A stretch of 64,000 bases of DNA from the NCBI RefSeq assembly GCF_009914755.1, contig NC_060941.1; one strand, written 5' to 3'. Positions 357-62,295 of the stretch are shown piece after piece. Under the pieces are notes generated by a model, which did not search any database, was not told the origin of the DNA, and was given only the letters and a program-made list of their open reading frames with translations. Position 1 is the stretch's first letter, and each line of letters begins with the position of its first letter. The stretch is from the human T2T-CHM13v2.0 reference genome, Homo sapiens. Both the position numbers and the translations under genes were made by a program.

Positions 357-410
357 CTGCTGGAAAGTTGTATAAATGTAAGTTGCTGAATGGAACAAGG
401 TCTCTCAAAG
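357..410 (+). CDS. EF-hand-repeat exon 1 (54 nt, short type a)
   Basis: atcttacag|CT...AAAG|gtaagt; encodes AGKLYKCKLLNGTRSLK. Confidence 0.85.
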
Positions 411-873: not shown

Positions 874-978
874 GAGTGAAGCTTAGTGTTGATAAGCTAG
901 AACCCTTCATAGAACATACGGGCTTTGAGCTTGAGGAAGAGGAATACCAAGATCTGAAAAACAACCTGCCCATTTATG
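874..978 (+). CDS. EF-hand-repeat exon 2 (105 nt)
   Basis: ttttctaag|GA...TATG|gtgagc; GVKLSVDKLEPFIEHTGFELEEEEYQDLKNNLPIY. Confidence 0.88.
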
Positions 979-4354: not shown

Positions 4355-7243
<2,889 letters not shown>

Positions 7244-11831: not shown

Positions 11832-12233
11832 CTTTTGTTCCCTACCAAGAGAGCTACTGTAAACATGATGAACATTCATAAAAGCCACTGGACTTTCTGT
11901 AGGAAGTATGGCAAGCACCAATCCCACAAAGTGACACAGTGCAAGAAGGGCAAGGATTCTCTGTATGCCCAGGGAAAGCAGTGTTATGACAGGAAGCAGA
12001 GTGGCTATGATGGGCAGACTAAGCTGATTTTCCAGAAAAGGCTAAACCACAAAGAAGATTGTGCTGAGACAAGAGTGTATTGAGTCCAACTGCAGATCTC
12101 AGCGAATGCTGGCTATTAAAGAGAACTGGAAGGAGCTAAAACAAGAAAGGGCCAAGTGATTCAGTTCTGAGCTTCATCTTTTGTTTTATTAAGAAAACAA
12201 TACAATCTTGAGGTTATGCTCAAACAAGAAAGA
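11832..12233 (+). pseudogene. Processed pseudogene of 60S ribosomal protein L36a (RPL36A-derived)
   Basis: ATG 11865; [56 protein letters not shown] resembles RPL36A ([34 protein letters not shown]). Frameshifts follow, it ends GQVIQF-TGA at 12170, has no introns and a decayed A tail. Imperfect TSD aactgcatctt 11818-11828 / aattgcatctt 12234-12244. Confidence 0.93.
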
Positions 12234-13028
12234 AATTGCATCTTCAAGCAGAGAAAAGAGCCATGGTGAAGGAAAATTGTACACAGTCATCCTAAGAGCA
12301 GACTGGGAGATGGTTGCAGGGGGCAGGGATAACTGGTGATTTCCACTCTCATAACCAGGAACTAAAACTAAGTTTGTTACCAAAGAAACTTGTTAGCTTT
12401 GTGTCTTATTCATGCTTGTGATAGTTTGGTTATCACCTGTCTGTTTCCCTCTAGCACTTTACATTAAAGTTCTAAGAATAAAAAATCTCTACATGCTAGT
12501 GTTCCTGAGGCACACAAAAAGAGGTGAACTTGAGAGTTTGCATCTGACTTCCTAGCCACCCTTAAGGAAGGAAGCACAAGAAATGCACTGTGTGTTGTAG
12601 CTACCAAGAAGAGGAAAGCAGACTCACCAAATCCCTGAGGCATGATAGAGAGCCAGACCAGGTTAAGGTAGAAGCCCCTAGAGATAGGCCCTGTATGGTG
12701 GCAAAACATGCAATTAAGAAAATTTTGCAAAATCGAGATTCCAATGTTTGCACAAAATTCTATTTTAAATGCAATGTTTCCCTTTTTGATACATTCTCTC
12801 ACTCTACCTATTTACTGGTGAACGTTTGCATCTAATGGCTTACAGCCTAATTTTCACCACCATTGTTTTAGAAAACAGCTCGAAGATTATGTCTGAGCAA
12901 TAGCTGGCATTCTTGCCGATTTATTTCATTAATGTTTAATCAGCAAATGATGCTACATGAACATTTTTCTTAATATAGAATCATCATTCTTCAAACTTTA
13001 AACCACTTTCACTTTTTACTTTTTAAAG

Positions 13029-13133
13029 GTGAAAAGGTTGATACTAGGAACCTGGAAAATTTTCTGGAAAATATGGGGATAAAGCTCACAGAAGATAAAG
13101 AAATGCAACTGCTGAATAATCTTCCAGTTGATG
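13029..13133 (+). CDS. EF-hand-repeat exon 4 (105 nt)
   Basis: tttttaaag|GT...GATG|gtaagc; GEKVDTRNLENFLENMGIKLTEDKEMQLLNNLPVD. Confidence 0.9.
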
Positions 13134-13897: not shown

Positions 13898-13951
13898 CCA
13901 AAGGAAAGGTATTTGTGAACAGATTGATGAAAGAATTGAGAGGTCTTGAAG
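13898..13951 (+). CDS. EF-hand-repeat exon 5 (54 nt, type a)
   Basis: gtcttacag|CC...GAAG|gtgagt; AKGKVFVNRLMKELRGLE. Confidence 0.88.
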
Positions 13952-20027: not shown

Positions 20028-20132
20028 GAACAAAAGTGTCTTCAGATAAGAAGGAAACTTTCTTGAAAAGCATAGGAATTGATCTCAAGGAGAAAGAAAT
20101 CCGGACACTGAATGACCACCTACCACTTGATG
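20028..20132 (+). CDS. EF-hand-repeat exon 6 (105 nt)
   Basis: ttcttaag|GA...GATG|gtgaga; GTKVSSDKKETFLKSIGIDLKEKEIRTLNDHLPLD. Confidence 0.88.
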
Positions 20133-21393: not shown

Positions 21394-25182
<3,789 letters not shown>

Positions 25183-32054: not shown

Positions 32055-32159
32055 GAGAGCAGATTCATGCTGGGGATGTGAAAAATGTTCTGGAAAACAT
32101 GGGAATAGAGATCACAAATAAGGAGCACAAAAAGCTTCTGAAAACTCTGCCAGTTTCTG
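32055..32159 (+). CDS. EF-hand-repeat exon 8 (105 nt)
   Basis: cctctaaag|GA...TCTG|gtaagc; GEQIHAGDVKNVLENMGIEITNKEHKKLLKTLPVS. Confidence 0.9.
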
Positions 32160-32820: not shown

Positions 32821-32874
32821 CTGATAAAAAGGTGTTTAAGAAAGAATTATTGGATGGTGTGAAATCCTTCAGAG
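32821..32874 (+). CDS. EF-hand-repeat exon 9 (54 nt, type a)
   Basis: atcctacag|CT...AGAG|gtaagt; ADKKVFKKELLDGVKSFR. Confidence 0.88.
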
Positions 32875-36013: not shown

Positions 36014-36118
36014 GAGGGCAGGTTAATGTCAATGACCTAACAAGTGTTCTACAAAACACTGGGTTCAGACTCGAAGCAAAAGAAATCAACGACCTGAAGA
36101 CTCACATGCCAGTGACTG
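36014..36118 (+). CDS. EF-hand-repeat exon 10 (105 nt)
   Basis: ctatgaag|GA...ACTG|gtgagc; GGQVNVNDLTSVLQNTGFRLEAKEINDLKTHMPVT. Confidence 0.87.
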
Positions 36119-36784
36119 GTGAGCATTTAAGACACCTTTATCCTGTAGATAATGACTAGTCTACTGTGAAAGCAAAGAGTAAAGACATGTTGGAGAGAGA
36201 AAAACTGGGGACAGAGATACAATTTAAGATACTGTTAATAAGGTACAGGTGATAAGGGCCTTACCTGGGAACCACACATACATGGGGAAGACTGATTTGA
36301 TGTGGTGGGTGAAAGGGAGGGAGATACTAAAGTGTGCACCAGAAGTTTATCACTTATGTGACTGCCAAAAAACCATTTTTAAGAACAGGGAGAAGGATAG
36401 CAGAGGAAGCAGAATGAAGAAAAATCTTTGAAATATAGTTGAATTGAGGTACTTATAGGACACTCAGTATCAGACAATTGAAAATGCATTCCCTAATTAT
36501 TAGTTATTCATCTTTAAACAAGGTACATCAAACCGTGAGAATCATCACCAGGGTTAAAACAGTGTCTCAGAGTGTCTCTATGAGGACAAGAATACCAAAA
36601 GAATGGAAAGATAGAATAAAGAAATATTTGAGAGATAAAAAATGGAATAAAAGAGTAGGATAAGGAAGAAAGAGATTACAGAAAGAGATGAGGGGAGGGT
36701 AAGAGAAAATAAAAAGTATAAGAAGAGATGAAAAGATATATCCATCAGGATACAGACCAATCTCCTATTTTTGAATTTTTATAT

Positions 36785-39700
36785 ATTTTTTTATTATTTC
36801 AATAGTTTTGGGGGAACAGGTGGTATTTGGTTACATGGATAAGTTATTTAGTGGTAATTTCTGAGATTTTAGTGCACCCATTACCCGAGCAATGTACACT
36901 GCACCCAATGTGTAGCCTTATCCCTCACCCCACTTCTAACCTTCCCCTTGAGTCCCCAGAGTCCATTATATCGTTTGTATGCCTTTGCATCCTTATAGCT
37001 TAGCTCCCACTTATAAATGAGAACATACAATGTTCATTTTTCCATTCCTGAGTTACTTCACTTAGAATAATGGTCTCCAACTCCATCCAAGTTGCTGTGA
37101 ATGCCATTATTTCATCCTTTTTATGGCAGAGTAGTATTCCATGGTATATATATGTACCACATTGTCTTTATCCACTCATTGGTCGATGGGCATTTAAGCT
37201 GGTTCCATATTTTTGCAATTGCAAATTGTGCTGCTATAAACATGCATGTTCATGTGTCTTTTTCATATAATGACTTCTTTTCCTCTGGGTAGATACCCAG
37301 TAGTGGGATTGCTAGATCAAATGGTAGATCTACTTTTAGTTCTTTAAGGAGTTTCCATACTGTTTTCCATAGTGGTTATACTAGTTTACATTCCCACCAG
37401 CAGTGTAAAAGTGTTCCCTTTTTACCACATCCACACCAACATCTATTATTTTTTGATTTTTTAATTATGGCCATTCTTGCAGGAGTAAGGTGGTACCACA
37501 TTGGGGTTTTGATTTGCATTTCCCTGATCATTAGTGATGTTGAGCATTTTTCATACATTTGTTGGCTGTTTGTATGTCTTCTTTTGAAAATTGTCTATTC
37601 ATGTCCTTTGCCCACTTGTTGATGGGATTTGTTTTTTCTTGCTGATTTGTTTGAGTTCCCTGTAGATTGTGGATATTTGTCCTTTGTTGGATGTATAGTT
37701 TGCAAAGATTTTCTCCCACTCTGTGAGTTGTCTGTTTACTCTGCTGATTATTTCTCTTGCTGTGCAGAAGCTTTTTAATTAAGTCACATCTATTTATCTT
37801 TCTTTTCATTGCATTTGTTTTTGAGTTCTTGGCCATAACATCTTTCCCTAAGCCAATGTCTAGAAGAGTTTTTCTGATGTCATCTTCCAGAATTTTTATG
37901 GATTTGGGTCTTAGATTTAAGTCTTTGATTCATCTTGAGTTGATTTTTGAATAAGGTGAGAGATAAGGGCCCAGTTTCATTCTCCCACGTGTAGCTTGCC
38001 AATTTTTACAGCACCATTTGTTGAATAGGGTGTCCTTTCCCCACTTCATGTTTTTTGTTTTTTTGTTTTATTTTGGTTTTTTTGTAGATATGGGGTTTCA
38101 CCATGTTGGCCAGGCTCCTGGCCTCAAGTGATCTGCCCACCTTGGCCTCCCAAAGTGCTGGGATTATAGGCGTGAGCCACCATGCCTGACCTGTTTACGT
38201 TTTTGTTTGTTTTATTGAAGATCTGTTGGCTGTAAGTATTTGGCTTTTTTCTGGGTTCTCTATTCTGTTCCGTGCCTATTTTTATACCAGTACTATGCTG
38301 TTTTGGTGACTATGGCCTTATAGTATAGTTTGAAATCAGGTAATGTGATGCCTCCAGATTTGTTATTTTTGCTTAGTCTTGCTTTGGCTATGTGGACTCA
38401 TTTTTTGTTCCATATGAATTTTAGAATTGTTTTTTCTAGTTCTGTGAAGAATGATGGTGGTATTTTGATGGGAATTCCATTGAATTTGTAGATTGCTTTT
38501 GGCAATGTGGTCATTTTCACAATATTGAATGTACCCATCCATGAGCATGGGATGTGTTTCCATTTGTTTGTGTTGTCTATAATTTCTTTCAGCAGTGTTT
38601 TGTAGTTTTCCTTGTAGAGTTCTTTCACCTCCTTGGTTAGGTATATTCCTAAGTATTTTTTTTTTTTTGCAGCTATTGTAAAAGAGGTTGAGTTCTTAAT
38701 TTGATTCTCAGCTTGGTTACTGTTGGTATACAGGAGAGCTACTGATTTATGTACATTAATTTTGCATCTGGAAACTGCTGAATTATTTTATCAGTTCTAG
38801 CAGCTTTCTGGGGGAGTCTTCAGGGTTTTCTAGGTAGACAATCATGTCATCAGCAAACAGCAACAGTTTAACTTCCTTCTTATCAATTTGGATGCCCTTT
38901 ATTTCTTTCTCTTGTCTGATTGCTCTGGCTAGGACTTGCATTACTATGTTGAACAGAAGTGGTGTGAATGGGCATCCTTATCTTGTTTCAGTTATCAGAG
39001 GGAATGCTTTCAACTTTTCCCCATTTAGTATTATGTTGGCTGCAGGTTTGTCATAGATGGCTTTTATTACATTGAGGTATGTCCCTTGTATGCCAATTTT
39101 GCTGAGAGTTTTAACCATAAAGGGATGCTGGATTTTGTCAAATGCTTTTTCTGCATCTATTAAGATGAGGATGTGATTTTTGTTTTTAATTCTGTTTATG
39201 TGGTGTACCACATTTACTGACTTGCATATGTTAAACCATCACTGCATCCCTGGTATGAAATTCACCTGATCATAGTGGATTATCTTTTTGATATGTTGTT
39301 GGATTCGGTTAGCTAGTATAGTATTTTGTTAAAGATTTTTGCATCTATGTTCATCAGGGATACTGGTCTGTAGTTTTCTTATTTGGTTATGTCTTTTCCT
39401 GGTTTTTGTATTAGGGTGATACCGGCTTCATAGAATGATTTAGGGAGGAATCCCTCTTTATCTTGTGGAATGGTGTCAATAGGATTGGTACCAATTCTTC
39501 TTTGAATTTCTGATAGAATTCAGCTGTGAATCCATCTGGTCCTGGACTTTATTTTCTTGGCAATTTTTTATTATCATTTCAATCTTGCTGCTTGTTACTG
39601 GTCTGTTTAGAGTTTCTGTTTCTTTCTGGCTTAATCTAAGAGGGTTGTGTATTTCCAGAAATTTATCCATCTCCTTTAGGTTTTCTAGTTTATTCATGTA

Positions 39701-41515
39701 AAGGTGTTCATAGTAGCCTTGAATGATCTTTTGTATTTCTGTAGTATCAGTTGTAATATCTCCTATTTTGTTTCTAATTGAGCTTATTTGGATCTTCCCT
39801 CTTCTTTTCTTGGTTAATCTTACTAATGGTCTATCGATTTTATTTATCTTTTCAAAGAACCAGCTTTTTGTTTCGTAATTCTTTTGTATTTTTTTGTTTC
39901 AATTTCATTTAGTTCTGCTCTGATCTTGGTTATTTCTTTTCTTCTGCTGGGTTAGGGTTTGGTTTGTTCTTGTTTCTCTAGTTCCTTGAAGTGTGTCCTT
40001 AGATTGTCTATTTGTGCTCCTTCAGACTTTTTGATGTAGGCATTCAAGGCTATGAACCTTCCTGTTAGCACTGCCTTTTCTGTATCCCAGAGCTTTTGAT
40101 AGGTTGTATCACTATTATCATTCAGCTCAAAGAATTTTTTAATTTCCATCTTGATTACATTGTTAGCCCAACAATCATTCAGGAACAAGTTATTTAATTT
40201 CCATGTATGTGTATCAAACCCCTTTTAGAGTTTATTTCCAATTTTATTCCACTGTGGTGTGAGAGAGTACTTGGCTACTATTTCAGTTTCCTTAAATTTG
40301 TTGAGACTTGTTTTATGCCCTATCATATGTTCAACTTGGAGAATGTTCCATATGCTGATGAATAGAATGTATATTCTGCAGTTGTTGGATAGAATGTTCT
40401 GTAAATATCTGTTAAGTCCATTTGTTCTAGGATACAGTTTAAACCCGTTGTTTCTTTGTTGACTTTCTGTCTTGATGACCTGTCTACTGCTATCAGTGGA
40501 GTATTGAAGTCCCCCATTATTACTGTGTTGCTGTCTGTCTCATTTCTTAGGTCTATTAGTAATTGTTTTATAAATTTGGGAACTTCAGTGTTAGGTGCAT
40601 ATATATTTAGGATTGTGATATTTTCCTGGACAAGTCCTTTTATCATTATATAATGCCCCTCTTTGCCTTTTTTAACTGCTGTTGCTTTAAAGTTTGTTTA
40701 GTGTGATACAAGCATAGCTACTCCTGCTCTGTTTTGGCGTCCATTTGCATGGAATATCTTTTTCCACCCCTTATCTTAAGTTTATGTGAGTCCTTATGTG
40801 TTAAGTGAGTCTCCTGAAGGCAGCAGATACTTGTTTGATGAATTCTTAGCCATTCTGTATCTTTTAAGTGGAGCATTTAGGTCATTCACATTCAACATTA
40901 GTGTTGAGATGTGTGGTACTATTCTGTTCATCGTGCTGCTTTTGCCTGAATATCGTGTGTGGTTTTGTTTGTTTGTTTGTCTGTTTGTTTTTATTGTGTC
41001 ATTGTTTTATAGGTCCTGTGAGATTTATGCTTTAAGGAGGTTCTATTTTGGTGTATATTTTGGTGTATTTTGAGGATTTGTTTCAAGATTTAGAGCTCCT
41101 TTTAGCAGTTCTTGTAGTGCTGGCTTGGTAGTGATGAATTCTCAAAGCATTTGTTTGTCTGAAAAAGACTGTATCTTTCCTTTATTTATGGAGCTTAATT
41201 TCACTGGATACAAAATTATTGGCTGATAGTATACTTTAAGGAGGCTAAAGATAGGGCCCCAATTCCTTCTAGCTCATAGGTTTCTGCTGAGAAATCTGCT
41301 GTTAATCTGATAGGCTTTCCTTTATAGGTCACCTGGTGGTTTTTGCCTCACAGCTCTTAAGATTCTTTCCTTCATCCTAACTTTGGATAACCTGATGACT
41401 GTGTGCCTAGGTGATGACCTTTTTGCAATAAATTTCCCAGGTGTTCTTTGAGCTTCTTGTATTTGAATGTCTGGATCTCTAGCAAGTTCAGGGAAGTTTT
41501 CCTCAATTATTCCCT

Positions 41516-41517
<2 letters not shown>
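36785..41517 (-). mobile_element. L1PB-type element (~4.7 kb; 3' UTR, decayed ORF2, part of ORF1) with an internal Alu monomer (~38075-38195); 5' end missing
   Basis: Many minus-strand ORF2 peptide fragments in the ORF track ([30 protein letters not shown]). Confidence 0.93.
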
Positions 41518-42600
<1,083 letters not shown>

Positions 42601-42662
42601 GCTGGCATCTTCCACTTCTTCAAATTACTTGTTTTTCTTATTCCATCCTCTTAATTCCTAAG

Positions 42663-42767
42663 GAAAAAAAGTCAATGTCAGTAATCTGGAAACTCTTCTA
42701 AATAATATAGAAATCGAAGTTGGGAAAGAGGAATATGAGGACCTACTGAACCATCTGCCAGTTGATG
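42663..42767 (+). CDS. EF-hand-repeat exon 11 (105 nt)
   Basis: ttcctaag|GA...GATG|gtaagt; GKKVNVSNLETLLNNIEIEVGKEEYEDLLNHLPVD. Confidence 0.88.
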
Positions 42768-43405: not shown

Positions 43406-43624
<219 letters not shown>

Positions 43625-44028: not shown

Positions 44029-44921
44029 TGATCTGCATGCCTTGCCCTCCCAAAGTGCTGGGATTACAGGCATGAGCCACCCTGCCCAGCCGTAATTTGT
44101 AGTTTAAAACCTCACGCTCCCTAGGCTTAACAACATTGATAATTATCCATAATTTTGTCTGGCCCTTCCTCCTATCCTGAAAAAAGTCACCATAAATTAC
44201 TTTTTAATTGTAATGTTGTCCCTACATGTTTAGCTAGGGGGTCCTCAAAAATGCTTCCTGCTGGAAAATATTGTTACTGATGAGGTATTTTTTAGAATTC
44301 TTTATTTTTTTTAATGACAATTTTTTTTCTCATCCAATAGTGTGACTATTTCCATACCACTGAATTTTTTCATTTGTTTAGCTAGCACATACTATATGCA
44401 AAATAATGAACTAGAGAGTGGAAAATTTAAACCCAGTAGTATAATAAAATTAAGGCATAATTTCTGCACTCAAGTAGATTACAGTCTTGATGGGTAGAGG
44501 TGGGAACATAAGCAAAATTTGGAGATTAAGAAGATAGCATTCCTTCAAGGTTTAAAGGTTCACTGTTTATGTACATAAGTGACTTCTAGGTTTCAAATTC
44601 AATCATGTCTATTAAAATATGCTCCCCTTATGGGTCCGAAGGAAGAGAAAAGCCTATAGAAGGGATTACTGTTAAACTTGCTTCATCTCAATGTTGAGTC
44701 ATTTGATGCTTTATAGAAAGTGGTATTAATGAAGTAGGTGTTCACTTTAAACTTATGGCTTGATCTTTTTCTACCCTCTGTTTCTTCTTCACTTTGAGTT
44801 AAAAGAGTTACTAGAGAAAATTAGGAGAAATAGCTGAATTCCAACCTTTATATTACAACTTAAATTTTCATGTCAGTTGTCTAAGATTTGGTCTCTATGT
44901 CTGACTTGTCTCGTCTCACAG

Positions 44922-44975
44922 AAAATGAAATGGTTGATGTGAATGTGGTGATGGATGAAGCAAAAGCTTTTACAG
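44922..44975 (+). CDS. EF-hand-repeat exon 12 (54 nt, type b)
   Basis: gtctcacag|AA...ACAG|gtgagt; ENEMVDVNVVMDEAKAFT. Confidence 0.9.
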
Positions 44976-45890: not shown

Positions 45891-45995
45891 GAGAAAAAGT
45901 TAATGTCAGTAATCTGGGGAATGAGCTGAGGAAAATGGGGCTCGTACTCACTGATGAGGAGCACGAGAAGCTGCTGAAAACTCTGCCAATTCGCA
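45891..45995 (+). CDS. EF-hand-repeat exon 13 (105 nt)
   Basis: ttccaaag|GA...CGCA|gtgagt; [35 protein letters not shown]. Confidence 0.9.
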
Positions 45996-46808: not shown

Positions 46809-46862
46809 CTAGTGGAAAGGTATATAAGAATAGATTGCTCAAAGGTGTGAAGGCCCTCAACG
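46809..46862 (+). CDS. EF-hand-repeat exon 14 (54 nt, type a)
   Basis: atcttacag|CT...AACG|gtgagt; TSGKVYKNRLLKGVKALN. Confidence 0.88.
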
Positions 46863-47853: not shown

Positions 47854-47958
47854 GGCCAAGGGTCAAAACAAAAAAGGTGGAGATTTTTTTGGAAAACATG
47901 GGAACTAAAATCAAGGATGAGGAACTTGAGGAACTCATTACCCAACTACCAACTGAGG
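47854..47958 (+). CDS. EF-hand-repeat exon 15 (105 nt)
   Basis: ttcttaag|GG...GAGG|gtgagt; GPRVKTKKVEIFLENMGTKIKDEELEELITQLPTE. Confidence 0.88.
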
Positions 47959-61115: not shown

Positions 61116-61169
61116 GTGAGACAGCAGTTGACCTGAATGACTTAATGGATGCTGTCAGTTACATCAAGG
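61116..61169 (+). CDS. EF-hand-repeat exon 16 (54 nt, type b)
   Basis: gccttacag|GT...AAGG|gtgagt; GETAVDLNDLMDAVSYIK. Confidence 0.85.
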
Positions 61170-61423: not shown

Positions 61424-62163
61424 ACAATAACTAATCTGTATTTATATATCAGTGCCCATACTAGTCTCCAAAATTTTCAGCAAAACAGTTCTTCAAAATA
61501 GTAATAGATATCAAGAGCCACAGAACTATTCATACCCTTTTCCCCACTAACCCCAGTCTTAGAAATTTATCCTTTAAAAATAGTTTCATTCTCATAATTG
61601 TGAGAAAATTGAAACAGATTAGAAATATCTAACCATACAGGAATTACTACATAAACCATGGTATGTCAGTTTAATGGGATACCATGTTAAAATGCTAGCT
61701 GTAAAGATTATATGGCAACTTGGAAACATGTTTATGAAGGAATGATTTTAGGTTGGAAAAGCAAAATACAGAAGTGTACATGTATTAGATTTCCACATTG
61801 TAAAAGTAAAGCCTTATTGCCAAGACCAAAATGGAATATCAAAAACTAAAAATGGTTCCTGTGTTAGAGTGATGGAATTCTATCTTTCCCCTGTTACATT
61901 AATCTGTAATGTTGTTACATAAAACTAAGTCCCTATATGTACTTTAATGTGCTGTGGATTTTGCAACAACCCACCAGTCAATTCCTAACCCCTGGTTACT
62001 TTCTTCTTTGTAGCCACTTTCTGATTCTTTCAATCAGAATTAAAGATTTTTGTTTCTGATTCTCCTATTCTGGATGATAATGTATATAAGCACAGATAGT
62101 GTTCTTTGTCCTTTGCAAATAATTCTGTAATATTTTTGCAATTCATTTCTCACCCTTTCTAAG

Positions 62164-62267
62164 GAGAGGTGATTGATGTCCAGAACTTAGACAATTTCTA
62201 GCAAGCGAAGGGATTGAGCTCACAGAAGAAGAAATGAAGGAGTTGATGCCTCATTTGACATTTAACG
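62164..62267 (+). pseudogene. EF-hand-repeat exon 17 (104 nt) with 1-nt deletion and premature TAG
   Basis: tttctaag|GA...AACG|gtgagg. In frame it reads GEVIDVQNLDNF then TAG at 62199-62201; restoring one base gives the consensus-like ...NFLASEGIELTEEEMKELMPHLTFN. Confidence 0.85.
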
Positions 62268-62295
62268 GTGAGGTGTATGTTTTATAATTATGTTA

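What the first reader, a model, noticed from the sequence alone, without database searches (positions are those of the whole stretch)
62164..62267. Single inactivating lesion: 1-nt deletion with immediate TAG in exon 17
Seen: this exon is 104 nt against 105 for its eight siblings. AAT TTC TAG (stop 62199-62201) becomes N-F-L-A-S-E-G-I-E-L-T-E-E-E when one base is restored. The 16 upstream exons have no stop or frameshift, and all 34 splice dinucleotides are intact. Inference: very recent pseudogenisation, a polymorphic null, or a truncated product. Because every exon is phase 1-1, skipping this exon would keep the frame.
Basis: partly seen in the sequence, partly recalled or inferred. Interest (0 to 1): 0.72.

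Follow-up and report, generated by a model that had tools for sequence, protein, structure and literature searches.

The report
Human-only frameshift upstream of EFCAB3
A one-base deletion, seen in this human assembly but absent from the chimpanzee and every other mammalian protein examined, closes the reading frame of leftover repeat exons just before the EFCAB3 start codon; it most likely reflects ordinary decay of a gene already known to have been split in the ancestor of African apes.

Summary
Exon 62164-62267 is 104 nt, against 105 nt for eight sibling exons. Its frame hits TAG at 62199-62201. The 16 upstream exons (eight of 105 nt, eight of 54 nt, all phase 1-1) are open, and all 34 splice dinucleotides are intact.

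The chain is not an unknown gene. It is the tail of the EF-hand-like repeat array of the ancestral giant gene Efcab3-like, which Lilue et al. 2018 report was split into EFCAB13 and EFCAB3 in the Homininae ancestor.

New here:
- Chimpanzee EFCAB3 isoform X1 (961 aa) and macaque isoform X2 (1880 aa) read straight through the site (…DNFLASEG…).
- 27 of 33 mammalian EFCAB3 proteins examined also read through it, and none stops there. The deletion therefore arose on the human lineage.
- The human window also lacks three in-frame array exons that chimpanzee, macaque and seal keep.
- The TAG lies 35 nt before ATG 62234, at which gibbon and bat protein models begin. The lesion therefore uncouples the relic array from EFCAB3 without killing the gene.

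Amino-acid change in the array fits neutrality in both human and chimpanzee, so neutral decay is the best reading. Whether the deletion is fixed in humans, and whether the array is transcribed, could not be tested.

The parts
62164..62267 (+). Exon 17 of the chain (104 nt). It is the last 105-nt-type repeat exon in the window. RefSeq lists 62163-62267 as the first exon of alternative EFCAB3 transcripts.
   Evidence: hub annotation
62193..62198 (+). Site of the 1-nt deletion (AATTTC). MAFFT puts the gap between AAT and TTC. Which base was lost cannot be decided without ape DNA.
   Evidence: chimpanzee and macaque read N-F-L here
62199..62201 (+). TAG that closes the frame entering from the upstream exons. 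It lies 66 nt before the exon's 3' splice junction.
62234..62236 (+). ATG in the ancestral (post-deletion) frame, reading MKELMPHLTFN, with G at -3. Gibbon and bat EFCAB3 models begin at the equivalent Met. It is the probable start of the long human isoform.
62176..62190 (+). Four-codon mini-ORF (ATG...TAG) in a third frame, inside the RefSeq first exon.
357..410 (+). 54-nt repeat exon (B' type), open, AG/GT intact
874..978 (+). 105-nt repeat exon, open, AG/GT intact
6773..6826 (+). 54-nt repeat exon (B'' type)
13029..13133 (+). 105-nt repeat exon
13898..13951 (+). 54-nt repeat exon (B' type)
20028..20132 (+). 105-nt repeat exon; the first array exon included in the chimpanzee 961-aa model
23334..23387 (+). 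54-nt repeat exon (B'' type)
32055..32159 (+). 105-nt repeat exon
32821..32874 (+). 54-nt repeat exon (B' type)
36014..36118 (+). 105-nt repeat exon
36119..42662 (+). Intron in which three ancestral exons (54+105+54 nt, in frame) are missing from the human sequence. They are present in the chimpanzee, macaque and seal proteins.
42663..42767 (+). 105-nt repeat exon
44922..44975 (+). 54-nt repeat exon (B'' type)
45891..45995 (+). 105-nt repeat exon
46809..46862 (+). 54-nt repeat exon (B' type)
47854..47958 (+). 105-nt repeat exon
61116..61169 (+). 54-nt repeat exon (B'' type)

Best explanation
The 17 exons are the 3' end of the EF-hand-like repeat array of the ancestral giant gene Efcab3-like. 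They lie directly upstream of, and on the same strand as, today's EFCAB3.

Reported by others: a rearrangement in the Homininae ancestor separated this part from the gene's 5' part (now EFCAB13) and its promoter.

Shown here: on the human lineage, after the split from chimpanzee, one base was lost in exon 17. Any frame entering from the array now stops at TAG 62199-62201. That is 66 nt before the exon's 3' junction and 35 nt before ATG 62234. Three further array exons were also lost, in frame.

Inferred: the array was already evolving without constraint, so the deletion is a neutral decay event. Its consequence is that human EFCAB3 protein can only begin at ATG 62234 (long isoform) or at the downstream canonical start. 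Human transcripts that carry array exons would be non-productive and likely NMD targets. In chimpanzee, by contrast, the array is still predicted to be fused in frame to EFCAB3.
For: Identity of the chain:
- A tblastn of macaque EFCAB3 X2 (P0001) places all 17 human exons colinearly at its residues 873-1404.
- Chimpanzee X1 (P0002) covers exons 20028 to 62267 at 91-100% identity and continues into the EFCAB3 body.
- The hub annotation puts EFCAB3 at 62163 onward.
- Lilue 2018 (passages) describes Efcab3-like as a 188-exon gene of repeated EF-hand domains. It was split into EFCAB13 and EFCAB3 at the Homininae ancestor by a ~15 Mb rearrangement. EFCAB3 shows only low expression in testis, and the promoter lies on the EFCAB13 side.

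Derived state in human:
- Chimpanzee reads ...DNFLASEGIELTEEEMKELMPHLTFN and macaque reads ...DNFLVSEG....
- Of 33 mammalian proteins held, 27 read through the site, 4 start at the internal Met, 2 lack the exon and 0 stop there.
- The chimpanzee name carries no 'low quality' flag.

Neutrality:
- Over 337 sites shared by human, chimpanzee and macaque there are 7 human-specific changes. There are 4 chimpanzee-specific changes, plus 2 artefacts at the junction with the chimpanzee N-terminus.
- The neutral expectation is 3.5-5.0 changes per lineage. With omega 0.25, P(>=7) <= 3.4e-4 and P(>=4) = 0.012-0.039.
- One disabling lesion in 17 exons is expected under neutral decay since the break: 1.1-3.8 lesions expected, P(<=1) = 0.11-0.69.

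Start codon: ATG 62234 is in the post-deletion frame. Nomascus, Symphalangus and Pteropus models begin MKELMPHLTFNGNGK. In chimpanzee, 52 residues separate this Met from MAVSEIKPK.
Against: - Only one human haplotype was seen, with no population or read data. A private or polymorphic allele is not excluded.
- The chimpanzee and macaque sequences are computational protein models. No ape DNA could be read, so the exact lost base and its timing within the human lineage are unknown.
- The per-lineage divergences used for the neutral expectations (0.5-0.7% since the chimpanzee split; 0.6-1.6% since the break) are recalled values, not from a call.
- The RefSeq first exon begins at 62163, the last base of the splice acceptor, and 15 of 16 upstream exons end in G. 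This suggests that human cDNAs are spliced from array exons, so the array may not be transcriptionally dead.
- The chimpanzee array ORF is still open, which leaves room for a function that human lost.
- 7 human versus 4 chimpanzee changes is not a significant difference.
- The CDS of the RefSeq alternative transcript is not in the hub table. That it starts at 62234 is inferred. The fit to isoform lengths 438 and 490 aa rests on recalled numbers.
Confidence: 0.72

Rival explanations
1. Polymorphic or private allele, or an assembly error. Other human haplotypes would carry the 105-nt exon and could encode a chimpanzee-like array-EFCAB3 fusion, so the T2T haplotype would be a null for the long form only.
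For: The deletion lies in or next to a short T run, a context prone to slippage. Only one haplotype was examined. The rest of the chain is intact.
Against: The hub's RefSeq table lists no human transcript with any upstream exon, whereas the same kind of pipeline predicts a 961-aa form in chimpanzee. The three-exon loss shows that the human array has a second derived change. The high accuracy of a T2T assembly makes a 1-nt error unlikely, but that accuracy is recalled, not tested.
Confidence: 0.1
2. Functional change rather than decay. The chimpanzee-type long protein would be real and functional in apes, and the human frameshift (with the three-exon loss) would remove an N-terminal repeat array of about 400 residues, either by selection or with phenotypic effect.
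For: The chimpanzee model keeps an open frame through 14 array exons into EFCAB3. Many mammals have array-body fusions of 600-1500 aa. Loss of mouse Efcab3-like enlarges brain regions (Lilue 2018, passage).
Against: Replacement counts fit neutrality in chimpanzee as well as in human. The chimpanzee N-terminus is built from repeat-derived sequence. Lilue 2018 reports only low testis expression for EFCAB3. An open relic ORF of this size is not improbable after this time: P(0 lesions) = 0.02-0.33.
Confidence: 0.1
3. The frame is rescued by exon skipping. Human transcripts from upstream would skip exon 17 (phase 1-1) and still give an array-EFCAB3 fusion lacking 35 residues.
For: All 16 other exons are multiples of 3 in phase 1-1. 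Other mammals have isoforms that omit neighbouring exons, for example the dolphin and gundi models that join ...TFN directly to D(R/P)VTG.
Against: Exon 17 has a good polypyrimidine tract, an AG acceptor and a GTGAGG donor. It is the exon that RefSeq transcripts actually contain (hub). No human model with upstream exons is annotated.
Confidence: 0.05

Closest known systems
Efcab3-like (mouse Gm11639) and its split into EFCAB13 + EFCAB3 in Homininae (Lilue et al. 2018; bioRxiv 10.1101/235838, passages read)
   Same: Same locus and same repeat exons. The paper already states that EFCAB3 is a part of the ancestral gene, that internal repeats were deleted, and that the promoter stayed with EFCAB13.
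   Different: In the passages I read, the paper does not mention the open relic exons upstream of human EFCAB3, the 1-nt deletion, the three-exon loss or the human-chimpanzee difference. Its supplementary figures 12-14 could not be seen (bioRxiv supplements are closed) and may bear on this.
Homininae paracentric inversion of 17q with a distal breakpoint in the 17q23 duplication block DUPB (Cardone et al. 2008, PMC2374708, passages read)
   Same: The TBC1D3 and USP32 pseudogenes that the hub lists just upstream of the window are the kind of duplicons the paper places at the 17q23 breakpoint. The timing (after orangutan, before gorilla) is the same.
   Different: The paper's proximal breakpoint is in 17q12, not at EFCAB13. 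That the window abuts DUPB is my inference from gene names, not a coordinate match.
Human-lineage unitary gene losses by small frameshifts (MYH16 is a recalled example)
   Same: A small deletion absent from chimpanzee ends an ancestral reading frame.
   Different: Here the frame lost is a relic array already cut off by a rearrangement. The downstream gene remains coding from an internal ATG.

Membership tests
EFCAB3 / Efcab3-like repeat array (orthology) | Colinear exon-by-exon match to the N-terminal array of EFCAB3 long proteins of other mammals | tested here: met
   17 of 17 human exons map in order to macaque P0001 residues 873-1404. 12 of 15 chimpanzee array exons are present, at 91-100% identity; the other three are absent from the human window.
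EFCAB3 / Efcab3-like repeat array (orthology) | Same strand as, and directly upstream of, the EFCAB3 body | tested here: met
   Hub annotation: EFCAB3 spans 62163..108406 on the + strand. Exon 17 is its first listed exon. The chimpanzee and macaque proteins continue from this exon into MAVSEIKPK....
EFCAB3 / Efcab3-like repeat array (orthology) | Array joined in frame to the EFCAB3 body | tested here: not met
   The human frame stops at TAG 62199-62201. It is met in chimpanzee, macaque and 25 further proteins.
EF-hand (Pfam PF13499 and relatives) | Match above the curated cut-off to an EF-hand model within the array | tested here: inconclusive
   Single human exons: 0 of 9 match an EF-hand family at E<=10. 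Chimpanzee P0002: EF-hand hits only at residues 584-637, in the body, not the array. Seal P0003, which is array only: EF-hand_7 at 60.3 bits against a cut-off of 30, and EFHB_C at 35.5 against 27, but no single stretch passes on its own. PDB profile: 7 of 17 sub-threshold hits are EF-hand proteins, at E 0.72-7.3.
EF-hand (calcium binding) | Canonical 12-residue Ca-binding loop | not tested
   The loop spans the exon junction. By eye it looks shortened, but I ran no pattern or structure test.
Nonsense-mediated-decay substrate | Stop codon more than about 50-55 nt upstream of a downstream exon junction (recalled rule) | tested here: met
   The TAG ends at 62201 and the exon ends at 62267, so the distance is 66 nt. 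This applies only to transcripts translated from upstream exons, whose existence was not tested.
Unitary pseudogene | Whole gene without a functional product | tested here: not met
   EFCAB3 is annotated as protein_coding (hub). An in-frame ATG follows the stop. Only the relic array is disabled.

The most novel reading that the evidence does not exclude
Chimpanzee, and perhaps gorilla, would still make a roughly 960-aa EFCAB3 carrying about 400 residues of EF-hand-like repeats. Humans would have lost that N-terminal array through a lineage-specific 1-nt deletion plus a three-exon deletion. That would be a human-specific domain loss in the remnant of a gene whose knockout enlarges mouse brain regions.
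Probability: 0.1. Interest if true: 0.65.

Novelty: new member of a known kind. Interest (0 to 1): 0.4.

Why it matters
The work turns an apparent 'unannotated 17-exon gene with one lesion' into a dated step in a known story, the break-up of Efcab3-like in African apes.

It adds two human-lineage changes, the frameshift and the three-exon loss, that I did not find in print. Only Lilue 2018 and two papers citing it discuss the locus, and none of the passages I read mentions these lesions.

It explains why the long human EFCAB3 isoform would start at MKELMPHL. It flags a human-chimpanzee difference in predicted protein length (about 490 against 961 aa; the human figure is recalled). That difference is cheap to test with existing ape T2T assemblies and testis long-read RNA.

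If decay is neutral, as the counts suggest, the biological weight is small.

Tried and rejected
I then used the 53-residue open frame around exon 47854-47958.
- Pfam on single exons gave only noise. A PDB profile search gave nothing below E=0.05.
- I looked for decayed extra repeat exons in the window with DNA and protein profiles. None was found: the next-best hits had E=5 for the 105-nt type and E=0.029, on the minus strand, for the 54-nt type.
- I looked for the chimpanzee model's first 40 residues in the human window. There was no counterpart; the best match was 50% over 18 residues, E=0.12.
- The chimpanzee-macaque difference between array (25 of 394 residues) and body (19 of 488) is not significant (Fisher p=0.12).
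- Rejected: that the TAG is the conserved C-terminus (0 of 33 proteins).
- Rejected: that the exon chain is a chance pattern.
- No tool here holds primate DNA, human variation or RNA reads, so dating within the human lineage, fixation and transcription were not tested.

Full report
**1. The observation**

AG is at 62162-62163, the exon runs 62164-62267 (104 nt), and GT is at 62268-62269. Read in phase 1 it gives EVIDVQNLDNF and then TAG at 62199-62201. One base further on, the frame gives ASEGIELTEEEMKELMPHLTFN and leaves one base for the next codon, as a phase 1-1 exon of 105 nt would.

I recovered the rest of the chain independently. There are eight 105-nt exons, at 874, 13029, 20028, 32055, 36014, 42663, 45891 and 47854. 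There are eight 54-nt exons, at 357, 6773, 13898, 23334, 32821, 44922, 46809 and 61116.

All 17 exons have AG and GT. The joined frame is open for 435 codons, and its first stop is the TAG of exon 17.

MAFFT of the nine 105-nt-type exons needs one gap only, in exon 17 at column 33, inside AAT-TTC.

The pattern is not chance. A DNA profile made from the eight siblings alone finds exon 17 at E=7.9e-12, and the next hit in the window has E=5. No further decayed copies of either exon type were found.

**2. What the chain is**

The hub annotation shows that 62163-62267 is the first exon of alternative EFCAB3 transcripts.

Lilue et al. 2018 (bioRxiv 10.1101/235838; passages read) describe Efcab3-like as a 188-exon, 5,874-aa mouse gene of repeated EF-hand domains lying between Itgb3 and Mettl2. 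They report it as full-length in orangutan, macaque, bushbaby and squirrel monkey. It was broken at the common ancestor of human, chimpanzee and gorilla by a ~15 Mb intrachromosomal rearrangement that also deleted internal repeats. That left EFCAB13, which kept the promoter, and EFCAB3, which shows only low expression in testis.

Cardone et al. 2008 (PMC2374708; passages) place a Homininae-ancestor inversion breakpoint in a TBC1D3-containing duplication block in 17q23. The hub lists TBC1D3P2 and USP32P4 just upstream of the window. That the two are the same place is my inference.

A protein search seeded with the open frame around exon 47854-47958 returned two proteins: Macaca nemestrina EFCAB3 isoform X2 (1880 aa) and Pan troglodytes EFCAB3 isoform X1 (961 aa). 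A tblastn of these against the window places all 17 human exons colinearly on macaque residues 873-1404. It places exons 20028 to 62267 on chimpanzee residues 78-483 at 91-100% identity. Both proteins continue from exon 17 into the canonical EFCAB3 body.

The chain is therefore the 3' end of the Efcab3-like repeat array, stranded upstream of EFCAB3.

**3. The lesion is derived on the human lineage**

Macaque reads ...DNFLVSEG....

Two further searches brought the set to 33 mammalian proteins. Of these:
- 27 read through the site.
- 4 begin at the internal Met: two gibbons and a bat with MKELMPHL, and a sloth with MPQL.
- 2 are isoforms that lack this exon.
- None stops there.

The stop is therefore not an ancestral C-terminus. 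Unless the chimpanzee model was silently corrected (its name carries no low-quality flag), the base was lost after the human-chimpanzee split. Which base was lost cannot be told from protein alone.

**4. A second human-lineage change**

The 54-nt exons alternate between two subtypes, and the alternation breaks between 36118 and 42663. Chimpanzee (residues 219-288), macaque and seal carry three exons there, of 54+105+54 nt, in frame. In the human window these find only paralogous exons, at no more than 62% identity for the 105-nt type and 73% for a 54-nt exon at 44915. Nothing lies inside 36119-42662.

'Single lesion' is therefore true for frame-breaking lesions only.

**5. How it most likely works**

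The TAG lies 66 nt upstream of the exon's 3' junction and 35 nt upstream of ATG 62234, which is in the post-deletion frame with G at -3. Gibbon and bat models start at this Met. In chimpanzee it lies 52 residues before MAVSEIKPK, which fits the recalled human isoform lengths of 438 and 490 aa.

In human, then, the array cannot be translated into EFCAB3. Productive mRNAs must initiate at 62234 or at the canonical downstream start. Transcripts translated from array exons would meet the recalled 50-55-nt NMD rule. These consequences are inferred, not shown.

**6. Decay or function?**

Over 337 sites shared by human, chimpanzee and macaque there are 7 human-specific replacements and 4 chimpanzee-specific ones. 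Two further chimpanzee differences are artefacts at the junction with the chimpanzee repeat-derived N-terminus. One site differs in all three species.

With recalled per-lineage divergences of 0.5-0.7%, neutrality predicts 3.5-5.0 replacements per lineage. A typical constraint (omega 0.25) is rejected, with P(>=7) <= 3.4e-4 for human and P(>=4) = 0.012-0.039 for chimpanzee.

Since the break, 1.1-3.8 disabling lesions are expected in the 17 exons. That gives P(<=1) = 0.11-0.69.

Both results say that the array was already drifting in the human-chimpanzee ancestor. The frameshift is a consequence of the gene's break-up, not its cause.

Several points argue against this reading:
- The chimpanzee ORF is still open.
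- The RefSeq first exon starts at the last base of the acceptor while 15 of 16 upstream exons end in G. This hints that human cDNAs are spliced from the array.
- The divergence figures are recalled.
- No DNA-level dN/dS was possible.

**7. Family membership**

Orthology to the EFCAB3 array is met.

EF-hand membership of the array is inconclusive:
- 0 of 9 single exons match an EF-hand family.
- The chimpanzee Pfam EF-hand hits lie at residues 584-637, in the body.
- The array-only seal protein passes the EF-hand_7 whole-sequence cut-off (60.3 against 30 bits) without any stretch that is significant on its own.
- A PDB profile search gave only sub-threshold hits, 7 of 17 to EF-hand proteins.

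**8. Novelty and verdict**

The split of Efcab3-like is known. I did not find the human-only frameshift, the three-exon loss or the 961-aa chimpanzee form in print. Searches found only Lilue 2018 and two citing papers that discuss the locus (passages read). The bioRxiv supplementary figures could not be seen.

It is a new member of a known kind: a lineage-specific frameshift in the relic of a rearrangement-split gene. Interest is moderate to low unless the chimpanzee long form proves functional.

Noticed in passing
window 36119-42662: Three in-frame array exons (54+105+54 nt) that are present in the chimpanzee, macaque and seal proteins are absent from the human sequence. The break in the alternation of the two 54-nt exon subtypes predicted this gap.
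   Followed up: yes
window 62163: The RefSeq alternative first exon starts on the last base of the splice acceptor AG, and 15 of 16 upstream exons end in G. A cDNA spliced from any of them would align one base into the AG. The annotated 5' end may therefore be a truncated cDNA, and array exons may be spliced onto exon 17 in human.
   Followed up: partly
P0002 residues 1-77 (chimpanzee model); window Alu copies, for example 43436-43558: The chimpanzee 961-aa model begins with repeat-derived sequence (Alu-like at residues 38-78) spliced to the exon orthologous to 20028. Its first 40 residues have no counterpart in the human window.
   Followed up: partly
window 357-62267, all 54-nt exons: The 54-nt exons fall into two alternating subtypes (GKxYKxxLL...G and xVDxNVxMDExKxxTG). 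The true repeat unit is therefore 318 nt, or 106 aa, made of two 105-nt and two 54-nt exons.
   Followed up: partly
P0001, P0002, P0003 (array regions): Pfam B5 (tRNA synthetase B5 domain, PF03484) scores above its whole-sequence cut-off on the repeat array (35-67 bits), with no stretch significant on its own. This is probably a summed-repeat artefact. It also appears in the precomputed domain lists of most EFCAB3 proteins.
   Followed up: no
window 11861-12235: The processed pseudogene RPL36AP47 (hub annotation) lies inside the intron between exons 6773-6826 and 13029-13133.
   Followed up: no
window 62176-62190: A four-codon ATG...TAG mini-ORF lies in a third frame inside exon 17, upstream of ATG 62234.
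   Followed up: no
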